Source: Schmidtea polychroa (taxonomy: Eukaryota). From it: 64,000 nt of DNA. The position numbers and the translations under genes were made by a program. The DNA lies in assembly GCA_044892525.1 (NCBI GenBank), contig CM097885.1, positions 682,001 to 746,000 of the forward strand, in the 5' to 3' direction. The notes under the pieces were generated by a model. It was not told the origin of the DNA and made no database searches. It saw only the letters and a program-made list of their open reading frames with translations. Of this stretch, positions 1,993-34,384 are shown piece after piece. How positions within the stretch are numbered: the stretch's first letter is position 1; each line of letters begins with the position of its first letter.

Positions 1993-2789
1993 CAATTAAA
2001 TTTATGTGAATAATAAAATATATATTGTGAATTATTTGACTTCGTTAATTAAAATATGTTTTATCATTTAATAATTCATTTGTCCAATTAATTTAGATAA
2101 TTAGTTTTAAGTAAGAATTATTATTTATCATGAAAACTTTGCTTTGTTTTGAAAAATTAATGCCCATTTTATTTTAAATTAACACAGCTTTATTTTATGA
2201 TAATTACTAATTAAAATTTTATTCAAATTGAAATATTATTGTTACAATTTACACTCTTGTTAGAATATATTAAATGTAAATGTAAAATAATAACAATAAA
2301 AAAATAATAATAATAATAAATAAATAAAAATTAAATTAAAAAAAAAATTAATTAAATAACGTAAGTAATTAAAATAAAATATTAATAAATAATTAATTAA
2401 TTAAATGTAATAAATTGAAAATTAACTAAAGTAATTAATTAAAACAAAAAACATAATAAAATAATTAATTAATAAATTTAAAAAAAAAATTAAATAACAT
2501 TAAAAAAAAAATAAATAGAAATGATTCTATTGACCTATATTTGATCTGGACATTGGGATGACCTTGAAAGTGTCCTGGAGTCTATATATACTACTAATTA
2601 TAATCATAATTTTCTTTAATTTAACCCTTTATTTACTTAATTTAGCCCTTGTTAGTAGATGGATTGGGCACCGCTGGCACAGGGCACCGCTAGCACAGTA
2701 CCCCCCCTCCCCCCTCCTTCCGTCGAAAAGATTTTCAAAAATATTCTAAGTCTAAAAGTACATTTTTTTTCAAGGTCAAATTTAAACAA

Positions 2790-4180
2790 AGACATATGAC
2801 TCATCAAGGTCATTGAAACAAAGACCATGACTCACAGTATGACTCATCAAAATTTTCAAGGTCATTTAAACAAAGACCATGACTCATCCTATGACTCACC
2901 AAGGTCATTTTCAAGGTCATATGATTCATACTATGACTCATCAAGGCCAAAAAAATTTTCTCAGGGTCATTTAAACAAAGACCATGACTTATCAAGGTCA
3001 TTTTCAAGGACATATGACTCATACTATGACTCATCAAGGTCATTTCCAAGGGCATATGACTCATACTATGACTCATCAAGGTCAAAAAATTTTCTCAAGG
3101 TCATTTAACAAAGTCCATGCCTCATCAAGTTTGTTTTCAAGGTCATATGACTCATAATATGACTCATCAAGGTCGTTGAAACAAAGCCAATGACTATAAT
3201 ATGACTCATCAAGGTCATTCTCAAGGTCGTATGACTCATAATATGACTCATCAAGGTCATTCTCAAGGTTGGATGACTCATACTATGACACATCAAGGTC
3301 ATTTTCAAGGTCATATGACTCATCCGATGAGGCATAAAAATTTTCAAGATCATTTAAACAAAGACCATGACTCATTCAAGGTCATTTTCAAGGTCATATG
3401 ACTCATTCAAGGTCATTTTCAAGGTCATATGACTCATCAAGGTCATTTTCAAGGTCATATGATTCATACTATGACTCGTCAAGGCCAAAAAAATTTTCTC
3501 AAGGTCATTTAAACAAAGACCATGAATTATCAAGGTCATTTTCAAGGGCATATGACTCATACTTTGACTCATCAAGGTCATTTCCAAGGTCATATGACCC
3601 ATACTATGACTCATCGAGGTCAAAAAAATTTTCTCAAGGTCATTTAACAAAGACCATGACTCATCAAGTTTGTTTTCAAGGTCATATGACTCATAATATG
3701 ACTCATCAAGGTCATTGAAACAAAAACCGTGACTATAATATGACTCATCAAGGTCATTCTCAAGGTCGTATGACTCATAATATGACTCATAAAGGTCATT
3801 CTCAAGGTTGGATGACTCATACTATGACACATCAAGGACATTTTCAAGGTCATATGACTCATCCGATGAGTCATAAAAATTTTCAAGGTCATTTAAACAA
3901 AGTCCATGACTCATTCAAGGACATTTTCAAGGTCATATGACTCATTCAAGGTCATTTTCAAGGTCATATGACTCATTCAAGGTCATTCTCAAGGTCATAT
4001 GACTCATACTATGACTCATAAAAATTTTCAAGGTCGTATGACTCATACTGAGACTCATCAAAATTTTCCAAGGTCATCTGAGTCATCTTATGACTCATCA
4101 AGGTCATTTTCAAGGTCACATGACTCATCCAAGGTCATTCTCAAGGTCACATGAGTCATCGCTATGAGTCATCAAGGTCA
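2790..4180. repeat. Complex tandem array of TGACTCA / TCAAGGTCA words in the left TIR of element 1
   Basis: Dozens of ATGACTCAT and TCAAGGTCA units with higher-order periodicity; source of the repetitive ORFs at 2810-3940. Confidence 0.95.
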
Positions 4181-4471
4181 TATTATTATTTTTAAAAATA
4201 TTATTATTTTTATTATTATTTTTAAAAAATATTATTATTTTTAATTTTTTCAAAGTTCCCGTCAACGAAAATTAATAATCGATATCTCATTTTAAAGATC
4301 AATCCAAGGCCTTTCGAATGAGCCATATATCTTGTTATTCAGATTACTATTTCTAAAGATATTATTATTATTATTATTATTATTATTATTATTTTTATTA
4401 TTATTATTATTATTATTATTATTATTATTATTATTATTATTATTATTATTATTATTATTATTATTATTAAT

Positions 4472-4566
4472 CTATATACACCGAGTCTATATACTCCGAG
4501 TCTTTCCGACAAAATATTTTGTCCCCCTATGGGTAATGCTCACAAGGGTACTGGTCACGCTCAACA
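4472..4566 (-). promoter_or_regulatory. Conserved ~90-bp cassette, copy 1 (putative promoter)
   Basis: Minus strand reads TACCCTTG..TACCCATAGGGGGACAAAATATTTTGTCGGA..CTCGGAGTATATA; contains the perfect palindrome GACAAAATATTTTGTC (4508-4523). Confidence 0.5.
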
Positions 4567-5508
4567 AATCAGCAAATCAACAAAACAAACATTTATTTAA
4601 ACAATAAAATAATGTAAAATTAACAAAGGTAAACTAAATATTGATGTACTACTATTCGCAGCAATATTGTTTGAAAACAAACGGCAATACAAAAGTACTC
4701 ATCGATGACTCATTTATTTTTTGAAGAAAGACAATGACGCACCCATGGGATATATTATTTATTACTATCAATAGTATTAATATTATTATTATTAATATTA
4801 TTATTATTATTATTATTATCATCAAGTTTTAATAACCAAGGTAATTTAAACAAAGACCATGACTCAGTCGCTGAATCATCAAGGTCGTTCTATTTTTAGT
4901 AACAAAGACATCTATTTTTAGTAACATTTTGAATATATTTTTAGTAACATTTTTGATCCGATCATTGATCCGATGACTCGCCAAGGTCATTCTATTTTTA
5001 GTAACAAAGACATCTATTTTTGTTCCAGCGGTTTATTTTTGTTTAAATTATCGAATACGTAATAATTTAATTTTGTTTAAATTGTTAATAATAATATTTT
5101 TATTTTTTGTTTTAATTATCGAATACGTAATAATTTAATTTTGTTTAAATCGTTGATTATATAATAATATTTTTATTTTTTGTTTTAATTATCGAATACG
5201 TAATAATTTAATTTTGTTTAAATCGTTGATTATGTAATAATAACATGTTTTGTTTTAATTATCGATTACTCAATAATTTAATTTTGTTTAAATCGTTGAT
5301 TATGAAATATTTTTGGATTTAATTGTCGATTACGTAATAATTTAATTTATCATTATAATTGGGAAAGATATTACCGCTCGCGCGGAAAATGTTATTTTCA
5401 AAATTATTATTTTCGAAATTTTAATCAATATTATTATTATTATTATTATTATTATTATTATTATTATTATTATTATTATTAATAATGTTATTATTATTAG
5501 TATTAATC

Positions 5509-31547: not shown

Positions 31548-32407
31548 GATTAATACTAATAATAATAATATTAATAATAATAATAATAATAATAATAATA
31601 ATAATAATAATAATAATAATAATAATAATATTGATTAAAACTTCGAAAATAATAATTTTGAAAATAACATTTTCCGCGCGAGCGGTAATATCTTTCTCAA
31701 TAATAATGATAAATTAAATTATTACGTAATCGACAATTAAATCCAAAAATATTTCATAATTAACGATTTAAACAAAATTAAATTATTGAGTAATCGATAA
31801 TTAAAACAAAACATGTTATTATTACATAATCAACGATTTAAACAAAATTAAATTATTACGTATTCGATAATTAAAACAAAAAATAAAAATATTATTATTA
31901 ACAATTTAAACAAAATTAAATTATTACGTATTCGATAATTAAAACAAAAATAAACCGCTGGAACAAAAATAGATGTCTTTGTTACTAAAAATAGAATGAC
32001 CTTGGCGAGTCATCGGATCAAAAATGTTACTAAAAATATATTCAAAATGTTACTAAAAATAGATGTCTTTGTTACTAAAAATAGAACGACCTTGATGATT
32101 GAGCGACTGAGTCATGGTCTTTGTTTAAATTATCTTGGTAATTAAAACTTGATGAAAATAATAATAATAATAATATTAATAATAATAATATTAATACTAT
32201 TGATAGTAATAAATAATATATCCCATGGGTGCGTCATTGTCTTTCTTCAAAAAATAAATGAGTCATCGATGAGTACTTTTGTATTGCCGTTTGTTTTCAA
32301 ACAATATTGCTGCGAATAGTAGTACATCAATATTTAGTTTACCTTTGTTAATTTTACATTATTTTATTGTTTAAATAAATGTATGTTTTGTTGATTTGCT
32401 GATTTAT

Positions 32408-32498
32408 TGAGCGTGACCAATACCCTTGTGAGCATTACCCATAGGGGGACAAAATATTTTGTCGGAAAGACTCGGAGTATATAGACTCGGTGTATATA
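32408..32498 (+). promoter_or_regulatory. Conserved cassette, copy 9 (TIR mirror of copy 1)
   Basis: Reverse complement of 4472-4566. Confidence 0.5.
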
Positions 32499-32917
32499 GA
32501 TTAATAATAATAATAATAATAATAATAATAATAATAATAATAATAATAATAATAATAATAATAATAATAATAATAATAATAATAATAATATTAATAATAA
32601 TAATAATAATAATAATAATAATAATAATAATAATAATAATAATAATAATAATAATAATAATAATAATAATAATAATAAAAATAGTAATAAAAATAATAAT
32701 AATATTAATAATAATAATAATAATAATAATAATAATAATATCTTTAGAAATAATAATCTGAATAACAAGATATATGGCTCATTCGAAAGGCTTGGATTGA
32801 GCTTTAAAATGAGATATCGATTATTAATTTTCGTTGACGGGAACTTTGAAAAAATTAAAAATAATAATATTTTTTAAAAATAATAATAAAAATAATAATA
32901 TTTTTAAAAATAATAAT

Positions 32918-33705
32918 ATGACCTTGATGACTCATCGCGATGACTTATGTGACCTTGAGAATGACCTTGGATGAGTCATGCGACCTTGAAAATGACCTTG
33001 ATGAGTCATAGGATGACTCAGATGGCCTTGAAAAATTTTGATGAGTCACAGTATGAGCCATACGACCTGGAAAATTTTTTGATGAGTCATAGTATGAGGC
33101 ATATGACCTTGAGAATGACCTTGAATGAGTCATATGACCTTGAGAATGTCCTTGAATGAGTCATATGACCTTGAGAATGACCTTGAATGAGTCATATGAC
33201 CTTGAAAATGACCTTGAATGAGTCATATGACCTTGAAAATGACCTTGAATGAGTCATTGTCTTTGTTTAAATGACCTTGAAAATTTTTATGACTCATCGG
33301 ATGAGTCATATGACCTTGAAAATGACCTTGATGTGTCATAGTATGAGTCATCCAATCTTGAGAATGACCTTGATGAGTTATATTATGAGTCATACGACCT
33401 TGAGAATGTCCCTGATTAGTCATATTATAGTCATGGTCTTTGTTTCAATGACCTTGATGAGTCATATGACCTTGAAAACAACCTTGATGAGTCATGGTCT
33501 TTGTTAAATGACCTTGAGAAAATTTTTTGACCTTGATGAGTCATAGTATGTGTCATATGACCTTGAAACTGACCTTGATGAGTCATAGGATGAGTCATGG
33601 TCTTTGTTTAAATGACCTTGAAAATTTGATGAGTCATGCTATGAGTCATGGTCTTTGTTTCAATGACCTTGATGAGTCATATGTCTTTGTTTAAATTTGA
33701 CCTTG
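32918..33705. repeat. TGACCTTGA / TGAGTCA array in the right TIR of element 1
   Basis: Shorter reverse-complement counterpart of 2790-4180. Confidence 0.95.
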
Positions 33706-34384
33706 AAAAAAAATGTACTTTTAGACTTAGAATATTTTTGAAAATCTTTTCGACGGGGAAAGGGGGAGGGGGGGGGTACTGTGCTAGCGGTGCCCTGTGC
33801 CAGCGGTGCCCTGTGCCAGCGGTGCCCAATCCATCTACTCTTGTTTACCGAATATAGAAGTTTAAAATATAGAGCATTGATTACTTTAATTTAAAAATGT
33901 ATCCCTTAATTTACATAATTTCCATCTAAAATTATTTCAAAAAAATTTTTTTTCTAAAATTGTCATTGAAAAAAATTTCATAAAAGTTTTCATTTAAAAT
34001 TTTCATTGAAAAATATTTCATAAAAATTTTTTTTAAAAATTATCTTAAAAATTATTCCATAAAAATTTCCATCTAAAATTACTTAAAAAATTATTTCATA
34101 AAAATTTTCATTAAAAAATTTCAATTCTCAAACACCTTCTATTATTTTGTTAATAAATTTAAAATCTTACTTTAATTTGCTTATTACATTACTTATTTAA
34201 AAATTATTACTTTAATTTACTTATTTAAAATATTTGACCATTGATTACTTAATTTAAAAATTTGGACCTTAATTAACTTTAATTTAATTTTTTAGAACCT
34301 TAATTTACTTTAATTGAAAATTTTAGACCTTAATTTTCATGTAAAATTGTCATTGAAAAAATTTTCATTTCTCAGGCGCCGTTT

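What the first reader, a model, noticed from the sequence alone, without database searches (positions are those of the whole stretch)
2648..33845. Giant-TIR, core-gene-less Maverick-like element with a perfect 6-bp TSD
Seen: AGTAG...CTACT ends, CTTGTT TSD and ~4-kb TIRs around a ~7.5-kb centre with no polymerase, integrase or capsid; the centre holds decayed spliced genes and a repeated cassette. Known: AGT ends plus a 6-bp TSD are the signature of Polinton integrase, and Polinton TIRs are normally about 1 kb or less. Inference: a ~16-kb non-autonomous satellite mobilised in trans, close to the size of a Polinton genome and so possibly packageable. It hosts a potential helper, although its terminus differs from the helper's after AGTAG.
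Basis: partly seen in the sequence, partly recalled or inferred. Interest (0 to 1): 0.85.

Follow-up and report, generated by a model that had tools for sequence, protein, structure and literature searches.

The report
Palindromic hitch-hiker of a Polinton virus
This 31-kb stretch is a long-armed relative of a virus-like Polinton transposon that has lost the polymerase, integrase and capsid genes but keeps the exact ends of an abundant complete Polinton found elsewhere in the genome, so it most likely spreads by borrowing that element's enzymes.

Summary
The element proper is 2654-33839 (AGTAG...CTACT) and is flanked by a perfect CTTGTT duplication. It has arms of about 4-4.5 kb and a 7.7-kb centre without polymerase, integrase or capsid genes. 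A different Polinton is nested at 6298-20655.

The same terminus occurs 1662 times in the genome. A complete Polinton of about 19.5 kb (RING, pPolB, integrase, ATPase, TBP) has the same first 46 bases. Of 32 paired ends examined, 20 carry that integrase and 12 do not. Six-base duplications flank 15 of 15 integrase-bearing pairs and 8 of 11 integrase-less copies.

- **Typical form:** four of the five other integrase-less copies read in full are 17-19 kb near-perfect palindromes with 8-kb arms and a loop of about 0.8 kb.
- **Arms:** the two arms of a copy share private substitutions.
- **This copy:** it is an atypical hybrid of two arm types and carries a decayed copy of the family's RING-finger gene.
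- **Nested Polinton:** it belongs to another family and is not the likely helper.

Mobilisation in trans is well supported but inferred. Replication or packaging by the helper is untested. This scan noted similar gene-less palindromic Polinton relatives before (e1-7879908 in this genome; e1-7786359 and e1-7786796 elsewhere).

The parts
2648..2653 (.). Left target-site duplication, CTTGTT
   Evidence: Read directly. It is identical to 33840-33845.
2654..2790 (+). Left terminus: AGTAG, then two 16-base repeats (GGGCACCGCTGGCACA and GGGCACCGCTAGCACA), a C-rich tract and a conserved AAGTCTAAAAGTACA box
   Evidence: The first 46 bases are identical in 15 of 16 ends compared (window, A, C, D, E, F, G, H). 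The 27-mer occurs 829 times forward and 833 times reverse in the genome.
2879..4128 (+). Subterminal 42-bp tandem array, about 30 units, each carrying ATGACTCAT and TCAAGGTCA. It is mirrored in the right arm at about 32920-33700.
   Evidence: tandem repeats; 62 and 82 motif matches in the window against 0.6 and 0.4 expected. The array is also present in the 1.2-kb TIR of the autonomous copy H.
2654..6297 (+). Left arm, outer part. It mirrors 33839-30790.
   Evidence: pieces at 81-96% identity.
6298..20655 (.). Nested Polinton of another family, not part of the element. Genes: pPolB 7287-11567 (+), ATPase 16117-16908 (+), integrase with a PLA2-like domain 16924-18333 (-), capsid 18372-19655 (-). 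Its right end is intact (AGTAGTGCG... read on the minus strand). Its left end lacks about 20 bases.
   Evidence: Its terminus family has 61 forward and 70 reverse hits, with pairs about 14.1-14.8 kb apart. Of 10 pairs, 8 have 6-bp duplications.
20656..21167 (+). 512-bp direct copy of 5786-6297 at 100% identity, flanking the nested Polinton in place of a 6-bp duplication
21168..21996 (+). Left arm, inner part. It mirrors 30904-29742.
   Evidence: 20684-21566 against 31382-30508 at 92.6%; 21326-21972 against 30372-29742 at 83.7%.
21979..24641 (+). Segment X: non-coding arm segment found in both arms of palindromic copies A, C and D, but only in the left arm here
   Evidence: A 30-mer from X occurs 982 times forward and 957 times reverse in the genome. 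No Pfam hit passed its cut-off and there was no Rfam match.
24642..27141 (.). Central cassette: 24642-25465, a spacer at 25466-26296, then the inverted copy at 26297-27141. The standard copies have in addition a centre of about 828 bp and a mirrored spacer, both missing here.
   Evidence: (pair I5).
27142..29741 (+). Segment Y: arm segment of a second subtype. It sits where the mirror of X would be.
   Evidence: 3843 candidates, often in inverted pairs. Copy F has Y in both arms. H 1211-1927 matches window 28484-29214 at 89%.
28524..28970 (-). Decayed copy of the family's RING-finger gene (zf-C3HC4_3), with 4 stops
   Evidence: (Pfam, 36.5 bits). Open copies occur elsewhere.
29742..33839 (-). 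Right arm with an intact terminus. It has three copies of the 16-base repeat instead of two.
33840..33845 (.). Right target-site duplication, CTTGTT

Best explanation
The element at 2654-33839 is a non-autonomous derivative of an abundant, complete Polinton/Maverick family in the same genome. That family is about 19.5 kb, has 1.2-kb TIRs, and carries a RING finger, pPolB, a chromodomain integrase, an A32-type ATPase and a TBP gene. I use copies H and G as examples.

The derivative keeps the complete element's terminal sequence and its subterminal 42-bp array, the presumed cis-acting sites. It has lost every replication, integration and particle gene. Its interior is non-coding DNA laid out as a long inverted repeat.

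What is shown:
- The terminus is the same as in the complete family.
- The 6-bp duplication is the same length.
- There are many copies at different sites.
- Core genes are absent.
- Many copies of the matching integrase have open frames.

What is inferred:
- The matching family's integrase inserts these copies in trans.
- The palindromic form arose by copy-back (strand switch) during replication of the linear genome, which is how defective genomes of protein-primed replicons are recalled to arise.
- The two arms are kept alike either by renewal at each round of copying or by gene conversion in place.

The window copy is an irregular member. Its left arm is of type X and its right arm of type Y. 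It lacks the usual centre, and a Polinton of an unrelated family later landed in its left arm.
For: 1. Same ends as a complete Polinton. The first 46 bases are identical in 15 of 16 ends of the window copy, A, C, D, E, F, G and H. H and the window copy also share about 1.1 kb of array-bearing ends at 81.6% and a 717-bp RING piece at 89%.
2. H and G carry the core genes. The pPolB matches the nested pPolB by tblastn at E 8e-92 and 2.5e-91, and G's C-terminal half reaches Pfam DNA_pol_B_2 at 32.5 bits. The integrase matches by tblastn at E 4e-32 and has rve and chromo domains. The A32 ATPase scores 30.3 bits and TBP 57.5 bits.
3. The helper is plentiful. The integrase is found in 135 scored places at 98-100% identity, nearly all without stops. 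Its 30-mer occurs 974 times forward and 994 times reverse.
4. Mobility carries the Polinton signature. Of 20 pairs, 18 have perfect, distinct 6-bp duplications. Split by the integrase 30-mer, that is 15 of 15 with it and 3 of 5 without it. The window copy, C, D, E and F also have them and A does not.
5. The nested, unrelated bona fide Polinton family gives 8 of 10, so AGTAG ends with 6-bp duplications are what Polinton integrases produce in this genome.
6. No core genes in the derivatives. The ten Polinton proteins gave no tblastn hit in the window's arms or centre, or in A-E and F. Copies A, C, D and E have only low-complexity ORFs.
7. Palindromic standard form. A, C and D consist of two 8-kb arms around a centre of about 828 bp.
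8. The arms evolve together. Over 3993 bases there are 6 (C), 8 (D) and 17 (A) arm-to-arm substitutions, against 19-27 between copies. All 22 of 22 sites shared by exactly two sequences pair the two arms of one copy. In F the arms differ at 24 of 3365 sites, against 59-61 differences from the window copy.
9. Copy-back forms that still hold genes exist.
   - A 15.2-kb pair with the duplication ATCATT holds two inverted integrase 30-mers 2.9 kb apart, each about 6.1-6.3 kb from an end, as in H.
   - Inverted integrase pairs lie at C1:98847064/98848103 and C3:43706709/43709010.
   - The window's own second structure, 35536-62257, has inverted pPolB pieces.
Against: - No direct evidence of movement in trans, of extrachromosomal forms, or of replication by pPolB.
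- Beyond about 1.2 kb of ends and the RING piece, the arms (X, cassette, centre, most of Y) have no counterpart in H or G at the DNA level. Their origin is unknown.
- Three of 11 integrase-less copies lack a duplication. Two of them (A and C1:1346303-1363396) have flanks that are inverted repeats of each other, 204 of 205 bases for A. That points to inverted duplication in the chromosome, or to assembly error, rather than insertion of a ready-made palindrome.
- Arm-to-arm gene conversion after insertion would also explain shared private substitutions. Four copies are too few to tell the two apart.
- The window copy's arms are not alike. They differ at 7 of 562 sites, against 1 of 562 in A and in D, and one has X where the other has Y. 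A symmetrical form is therefore not needed for insertion.
- Genome-wide there are more X 30-mers (1939) and centre 30-mers (811 forward, 811 reverse) than this terminus can hold: 1662 ends, of which about five in eight belong to integrase-bearing copies in my sample. Most palindromes of this kind must therefore carry other termini, which I could not read.
- H's integrase scores 26.2 bits on Pfam rve, under the 32.6-bit cut-off.
- The 406-aa ORF at the capsid position has no Pfam match.
Confidence: 0.8

Rival explanations
1. The helper and integrase are the same, but the palindromes are made and kept alike by the host chromosome: fold-back repair or inverted duplication at the site, followed by arm-to-arm gene conversion. 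Neither the Polinton polymerase nor a particle plays any part, and the copies are moved by integrase alone.
For: - Copies A and C1:1346303-1363396 have inverted-repeat flanks and no duplication.
- Short integrase-less copies of 3.2-13.6 kb with duplications exist, so unit length is not required.
- The asymmetric window copy has a perfect duplication.
Against: - Palindromes bounded exactly by the termini and a 6-bp duplication recur at many sites (C, D, F and others), so the palindrome existed before insertion.
- Copy-back forms that include integrase or pPolB pieces also end in proper termini.
Confidence: 0.3
2. This is a foldback-type cut-and-paste transposon of a different superfamily that merely resembles Polintons at its tips.
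For: - It has long inverted arms built partly of tandem sub-repeats and a small loop.
- It has no genes.
Against: - The first 46 bases, the 42-bp array and a RING piece are shared with an element that encodes pPolB and an rve-type integrase.
- In the three copies longer than 20 kb that I read in full, nothing lay between the termini other than Polinton genes, another Polinton or an LTR retroelement.
- No other family shares the 13-base tip.
Confidence: 0.03
3. The outer element and the nested Polinton form one composite that moves as a unit, with the nested element supplying the enzymes.
For: - The nested Polinton has long open frames for all core genes.
- Both elements begin with AGTAG.
Against: - The termini differ from base 6 onward.
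- The nested left end is truncated, and the nested element is flanked by a 512-bp direct repeat, so the insertion was aberrant and secondary.
- None of the other copies read in full (A, C, D, E, F, G, H) has this nested element.
- A helper with matching ends exists.
Confidence: 0.03

Closest known systems
Autonomous Polintons/Mavericks. Barreat and Katzourakis 2021, PMC8097293, passages read; Kapitonov and Jurka 2006, recalled and not held.
   Same: - AGT-type end motif.
- 6-bp target-site duplications.
- Terminal inverted repeats.
- Total length in the 12.7-24.6 kb range reported for intact vertebrate elements.
   Different: - No pPolB, integrase, ATPase, protease or capsid gene.
- Inverted arms of 4-4.5 kb here and about 8 kb in standard copies, against the reported 46-1447 bp and the 1.2 kb of its own helper.
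   Same: - Identical first 46 bases.
- Same 42-bp subterminal array.
- Same duplication length.
- A shared RING-finger gene region.
   Different: The complete element has all core genes. The derivative shares nothing else with it at the DNA level.
Snap-back or inverted-repeat defective genomes of adenovirus, and hairpin or palindromic derivatives of the yeast killer linear plasmids (pGKL). Recalled from memory. My search found no paper I read on them.
   Same: They are derivatives of protein-primed linear replicons in which one end is duplicated in inverted order. They depend on a helper and are often near unit length.
   Different: Those are extrachromosomal molecules seen in infected cells or yeast cytoplasm. 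These are integrated copies with target-site duplications, and no free form has been seen.
Foldback (FB) transposons of Drosophila and MITE-type non-autonomous DNA transposons (recalled).
   Same: - Long inverted arms with internal tandem repeats, a small loop and no coding capacity.
- The principle of borrowing a transposase through shared ends.
   Different: - The duplication length and end sequence are those of Polintons.
- The size is 17-19 kb rather than 0.1-5 kb.
- The helper is a virus-like element.
Earlier findings of this scan: e1-7879908 (this genome), e1-7786359 and e1-7786796 (other genomes).
   Same: Gene-less, almost wholly palindromic elements with Polinton-type ends.
   Different: - Here the matching autonomous element was found, and the two classes were counted side by side.
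- The 7SL-like piece of e1-7879908 was not detected in this copy.

Membership tests
Polinton/Maverick, autonomous | [quoted passage not shown] | tested here: not met
   The nested pPolB gave no tblastn hit in the outer element's arms or centre, or in copies A-F. The only pPolB inside the interval belongs to the nested element of another family.
Polinton/Maverick, autonomous | Retrovirus-like (rve) integrase gene | tested here: not met
   Searches found none outside the nested element. The integrase 30-mer of the matching family is absent from the window pair.
Polinton/Maverick, autonomous | Capsid, packaging ATPase and protease genes | tested here: not met
Polinton/Maverick, cis features | 6-bp target-site duplication | tested here: met
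   CTTGTT on both sides. Of 20 other pairs, 18 have one.
Polinton/Maverick, cis features | AG/AGT-type end motif with terminal inverted repeats | tested here: met
   AGTAG...CTACT. The motif as described in PMC8097293 was read. The arms are far longer than reported.
Non-autonomous derivative of the H-type Polinton family | Same terminal sequence as an autonomous element in the same genome | tested here: met
   46 of 46 bases at 15 of 16 ends. The array and the RING piece are also shared.
Non-autonomous derivative of the H-type Polinton family | Several copies at different sites, each with its own duplication | tested here: met
   8 of 11 integrase-less copies.
Non-autonomous derivative of the H-type Polinton family | Actually moved by the helper's integrase | not testable with these tools
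   Inference only. No read-level or experimental data.
Copy-back or snap-back defective genome of a protein-primed replicon | Inverted duplication of one genome end around a short unique centre | tested here: met
   Copies A, C, D and F. A 15.2-kb form has two inverted integrase 30-mers. The window copy itself is only partly symmetrical.
Copy-back or snap-back defective genome of a protein-primed replicon | Exists as a free linear molecule replicated, and perhaps packaged, by the helper | not testable with these tools
Foldback (FB-like) transposon of another superfamily | Own end sequence and duplication length distinct from Polintons, with its own transposase in some copies | tested here: not met
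   The ends are identical to those of a pPolB- and integrase-bearing element. No other transposase was seen in the three copies longer than 20 kb that I read in full.

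The most novel reading that the evidence does not exclude
The 17-19 kb palindromes are the integrated record of defective, satellite-like genomes of a currently active animal Polinton virus. On this reading they arise by copy-back during protein-primed replication and are copied by the helper's polymerase from the shared ends. Each arm is remade from the other every round, and their near-unit length lets them ride in the helper's particles. They would be the first defective-interfering or satellite lineage known for a Polinton. 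Their abundance, about 3 integrase-less copies for every 5 complete ones at this terminus, would be indirect evidence that Polintons replicate as linear protein-primed genomes in animal cells.
Probability: 0.25. Interest if true: 0.85.

Novelty: new variant of a known kind. Interest (0 to 1): 0.62.

Why it matters
Polintons are thought to be viruses that also live as transposons, but how they replicate has never been observed. This genome holds a large natural experiment. One young Polinton family sits beside hundreds of derivatives that kept only its ends.

- Many derivatives are folded into near-unit-length palindromes of the kind that protein-primed linear replicons are recalled to produce when replication switches strands.
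- If that reading holds, the derivatives are evidence for the replication mode of Polintons. They would also be a parasite of a virus-like transposon within an animal genome.
- Even on the cautious reading, the pair defines the cis-acting part of a Polinton: 46 invariant terminal bases plus a 42-bp array. It shows that arms of 4-8 kb are tolerated.
- It also identifies a small RING-finger gene, retained in many copies under apparent purifying selection, as a candidate accessory factor.

Tried and rejected
- **Whole-genome file:** not available. Only 32 terminus pairs (C1, first 50 Mb) could be classed, and only 8 copies were read in full.
- **Sequencing runs:** no RNA holder was listed and every run is kept as contigs. 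There was therefore no test of free ends, empty sites or expression.
- **Rfam:** nothing at gathering level in the window. At relaxed E-values over 20600-34000 and 22300-24700 there was only a chance-level snoRNA-like match. No tRNA was found.
- **7SL-like piece of e1-7879908:** not found here, and sequence look-ups in earlier findings gave nothing.
- **G+C-richer stretch 22636-22870:** it folds no better than shuffles, z = -1.6.
- **Pfam on 13 centre ORFs:** only the RING finger passed its cut-off.
- **Homology search with the RING ORF:** it returned two close relatives only. The protein atlas gave generic RING clusters at scores of 0.83 or less.
- **Another family sharing the 13-base tip with a different continuation:** 20 scattered hits and no family.
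- **Nested Polinton as helper:** rejected (see rivals).
- **Literature:** full-text searches found no description of gene-less palindromic Polinton derivatives. The phrase 'non-autonomous polintons' occurred once, applied to Tlr1 (PMC5499653, passage read). Repbase could not be searched and may well hold non-autonomous Polinton entries (recalled, not checked). Kapitonov and Jurka 2006 is not held.

Full report
**1. The observation**

The sequence shows CTTGTT at 2648-2653, followed by AGTAGATGGATTGGGCACC... from 2654. On the right...GGTGCCCAATCCATCTACT ends at 33839 and is followed by CTTGTT at 33840-33845.

A self-comparison shows the left arm 2654-6297 continuing at 21168-21996. It mirrors 33839-29742 in pieces of 81-96% identity.

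A dense gene block at 7287-19655 lies between the two parts of the left arm. By Pfam it encodes pPolB, an A32-type ATPase, an rve integrase with a PLA2-like domain, and a double-jelly-roll capsid protein. This is a bona fide Polinton nested at about 6298-20655.
- Its right end reads AGTAGTGCGTTTATATCC... on the minus strand.
- Its left end lacks about 20 bases.
- It is flanked by a 512-bp direct repeat at 100% identity (5786-6297 = 20656-21167), not by a 6-bp duplication.

Without 6298-21167 the outer element measures 16,316 bp.

The 7.7-kb centre (21997-29741) shows the following.
- No similarity to the ten proteins of the nested Polinton.
- No Rfam or tRNA match.
- Among 13 ORFs, only one Pfam hit passed its cut-off, a RING finger at 28515-28811 on the minus strand.

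**2. The family**

The window is G000:C1:682001-746000 of a 781-Mb assembly. Earlier notes of this scan call the genome flatworm-like; I did not test that.

The 27-base terminus occurs 829 times forward and 833 times reverse at up to 1 mismatch. At up to 3 mismatches the counts are 1053 and 1044. The reversed control gave 0.

In the first 50 Mb of contig C1, the 100 listed ends form 32 adjacent plus/minus pairs no more than 40 kb apart. I fetched the junctions of 20 pairs, and 18 have a perfect 6-bp duplication. Each pair has different flanks, although one hexamer, GTTGTA, occurs at two of them.

I read five further copies in full.

| Copy | Length | Duplication |
|---|---|---|
| C | 17,641 bp | ACATAT |
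| D | 19,387 bp | TCTGTA |
| E | 3,640 bp | CACATC |
| F | 32,643 bp | GAAAAG |
| A | 16,965 bp | none |

Copy F includes a 15.5-kb giant LTR retroelement with a 3495-aa ORF; its core is 17,153 bp. The flanks of copy A are inverted repeats of each other, 204 of 205 bases. Contig C95 holds the same locus as A in the other orientation.

**3. The helper**

I use two copies as examples.

Copy G (26,886 bp, duplication TAAATC) and copy H (19,483 bp, duplication TAAATT) begin and end with the same sequence. H carries, in order:

| Feature in H | Position | Evidence |
|---|---|---|
| RING-finger ORF | 1216-1704, minus strand | Pfam RING finger |
| pPolB ORF, 1325 aa | 2559-6536, minus strand | tblastn E 8e-92 to the nested pPolB; G's C-terminal half hits Pfam DNA_pol_B_2 at 32.5 bits |
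| 406-aa and 355-aa ORFs | capsid position | the 355-aa ORF, and G's 406-aa counterpart, have no Pfam match |
| Integrase | 12427-13506, minus strand | rve 26.2 bits (below Pfam's 32.6 cut-off), a chromodomain, and tblastn E 4e-32 to the nested integrase |
| A32-type ATPase | — | 30.3 bits |
| TBP gene, head to head with the ATPase | — | 57.5 bits |

- H's own TIR is 1.2 kb at 93.6% identity.
- The first 46 bases are identical at 15 of 16 ends of the window copy, A, C, D, E, F, G and H. The exception is the window's right end, which has a third copy of a 16-base repeat.
- H shares three things with the window element: the array-bearing ends (about 1.1 kb at 81.6%), short low-complexity pieces, and a 717-bp RING segment (H 1211-1927 = window 28484-29214, 89%).
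- G also holds a partial family member nested at 6730 to about 15590.

The helper is plentiful.
- G's integrase is found in 135 scored places at 98-100% identity, almost all without stops.
- A 30-mer from the integrase gene occurs 974 times forward and 994 times reverse.
- Of the 32 terminus pairs, 20 contain that 30-mer (median length 19.3 kb) and 12 do not (median 17.1 kb).
- Splitting the duplication test the same way gives 15 of 15 for integrase-bearing pairs and 3 of 5 for integrase-less pairs. Adding the copies read in full, 8 of 11 integrase-less copies have a duplication.
- A pattern requiring the first 13 bases and then a different continuation found only 20 scattered sites. No second family shares the tip.
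- The nested Polinton's own family has 61 forward and 70 reverse ends, in pairs about 14.1-14.8 kb apart, and 8 of 10 pairs have 6-bp duplications. AGTAG ends with a 6-bp duplication are therefore what Polinton integrases produce in this genome. That family's integrase is only 34% identical to H's.

**4. Architecture of the integrase-less copies**

Copies A, C and D are near-perfect palindromes. Each arm has about 3 kb of terminal material plus a 5.6-kb stretch equal to window 20656-26292. The centre, of about 828 bp, is absent from the window. They contain only low-complexity ORFs.

A second subtype, Y, has the window's 27142-29741 segment in both arms, as in copy F. The Y segment has 3843 candidates genome-wide, often in inverted pairs.

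The window copy is irregular.
- It has X on the left and Y on the right.
- It lacks the usual centre and one mirrored spacer.
- Its arms differ at 7 of 562 sites, where the arms of A and of D each differ at 1 of 562.

Since it nevertheless has a perfect duplication, symmetry is not needed for insertion.

Genome-wide, an X 30-mer occurs 982 times forward and 957 times reverse. A centre 30-mer occurs 811 times forward and 811 times reverse, in tight inverted pairs. That is more than this terminus can hold, so most such palindromes must carry other termini.

**5. The arms evolve together**

Over 3993 aligned bases, the two arms of a copy differ by 6 (C), 8 (D) and 17 (A) substitutions, against 19-27 between copies. 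All 22 of 22 sites at which exactly two of seven sequences share a derived base pair the two arms of one copy (contig C95 was left out because it is the same locus as A). F's arms differ at 24 of 3365 sites, against 59-61 differences from the window's Y.

Either the arms are made alike before insertion or they are homogenised afterwards by gene conversion. Four copies cannot separate these.

**6. How the palindromes may arise**

Gene-bearing copy-back forms exist.
- A 15.2-kb pair with the duplication ATCATT holds two inverted integrase 30-mers 2.9 kb apart. Each lies about 6.1-6.3 kb from its end, the same distance as in H.
- Two further tight inverted integrase pairs appear.
- In the window itself, a Polinton relic at 35536-62257 has inverted pPolB pieces in its arms.

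This is the pattern expected if replication of a linear genome sometimes turns back on itself. I recall it for adenovirus defective genomes and for yeast killer-plasmid derivatives, but I read no paper on either here.

Against a purely replicative origin, two integrase-less copies have inverted flanks and no duplication. That suggests inverted duplication in the chromosome, or assembly error.

**7. The RING gene**

The decayed ORF in Y matches a 163-aa RING-finger protein from a public source at 89%.

That protein matches 4598 candidate places in the genome as one continuous frame. Of the 150 listed, 141 have no stop. Several lie 1.2-1.4 kb inside ends of this family, including H.

Among 21 copies, the median dN/dS over the 183 pairs with at least 12 differences is 0.30, with a range of 0.08-1.27. 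This suggests purifying selection. I chose those copies from the best protein hits, which biases dN downward. Most copies also lack an ATG at the expected start.

The window copy has 4 stops.

**8. Comparison and novelty**

The ends and the duplication meet the cis definition of Polintons as described in PMC8097293: 6-bp duplications, (AGT)2-type end motifs, TIRs of 46-1447 bp, and sizes of 12.7-24.6 kb (passages read). The gene definition is not met. It is not an autonomous Polinton but a derivative that depends on one.

In the held library I found no description of such palindromic, near-unit-length derivatives. Repbase could not be consulted. This scan had already flagged similar objects. 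What is added here:
- the matching helper;
- side-by-side counts of complete and integrase-less copies;
- the arm statistics;
- the gene-bearing copy-back intermediates;
- the RING gene.

**9. Verdict**

This is a new variant of a known kind. Movement in trans is a strong inference. Replication and packaging by the helper are open.

Noticed in passing
window 5786-6308 and 20620-21167: The nested Polinton is flanked by a 512-bp direct repeat at 100% identity instead of a 6-bp duplication. Its left end lacks about 20 terminal bases, replaced by a 12-base AT filler, while its right end is exact. This looks like an aberrant one-ended integration repaired by the host, or an assembly fault.
   Followed up: partly
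window 16924-18333 (-): The nested Polinton's integrase protein carries a phospholipase-A2-like domain (PF08398, E 4e-9, 37 bits) ahead of the rve core. Parvovirus capsids are known for this kind of domain (recalled).
   Followed up: no
window 37566-51767: A second gene-less palindromic family begins with AGTAGGTAGATAGTAGCCCACCGC. Its arms 40594-44187 and 45590-49183 are 100% identical over 3594 bp around a 1402-bp loop. No ORF of 150 aa or more is present. The right end is not cleanly defined.
   Followed up: partly
window 35536-62257: A Polinton relic has 2-kb inverted ends (93.8% identity) that contain pPolB N-terminal pieces in both arms. Further inverted pPolB fragments lie at 54809-56089 (+) and 60608-58852 (-). 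It looks like a copy-back form of another family that still holds gene pieces.
   Followed up: partly
G000:C1:29602228-29617439 (not fetched): A 15.2-kb element with this family's ends and the duplication ATCATT holds two inverted integrase 30-mers 2.9 kb apart. It is apparently a copy-back of the right 7.6 kb of the complete element.
   Followed up: partly
Copy A (G000:C1:144584635-144601609, loci L031 and L032) and G000:C1:1346303-1363396: In two integrase-less copies the flanking DNA on the two sides is an inverted repeat (204 of 205 bases for A), with no target duplication. The palindrome there reaches beyond the element.
   Followed up: partly
window 2790-4180, 32920-33700; also 5640-6020 and 31190-31410: The arms carry dense arrays of ATGACTCAT and TCAAGGTCA: 62 and 82 matches against fewer than 1 expected. 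From memory, the first looks like an AP-1-type site and the second like a nuclear-receptor half-site. The same array is in the helper's TIR, so these may be protein-binding sites near the replication or integration ends.
   Followed up: partly
Genome-wide; for example locus L133:1216-1704 (-) and loci L110-L129: A small RING-finger gene of about 163-184 codons has thousands of candidate places in the genome. Of the 150 best-scoring places, 141 have no stop. It sits in Polinton-type elements, and dN/dS is about 0.3 in a biased sample. Most copies lack an ATG at the expected start.
   Followed up: partly
Locus L134:2427-3506 (-) and 4846-5283 (+): The matching complete Polinton has a chromodomain at the end of its integrase.
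   Followed up: partly
window 1-2594: The left flank is itself a tandem duplication (1-1181 against 1450-2594, 93%) that holds pPolB C-terminal fragments at 259-435, 1182-1571 and 1708-1884. The element therefore landed in an older Polinton relic.
   Followed up: no
window 33841-35365: A small inverted repeat (33975-34335 against 35272-34912, 95.6%) lies directly after the right duplication. It is related to pieces at 37936-38477.
   Followed up: no
Copy F, loci L046 and L047 (G000:C1, about 3045500-3061000): A 15.5-kb LTR-type retroelement with a 3495-aa gag-pol-like ORF is nested in a Y-type copy. It recalls the giant planarian Burro elements described in PMC6431247 (passage read).
   Followed up: no
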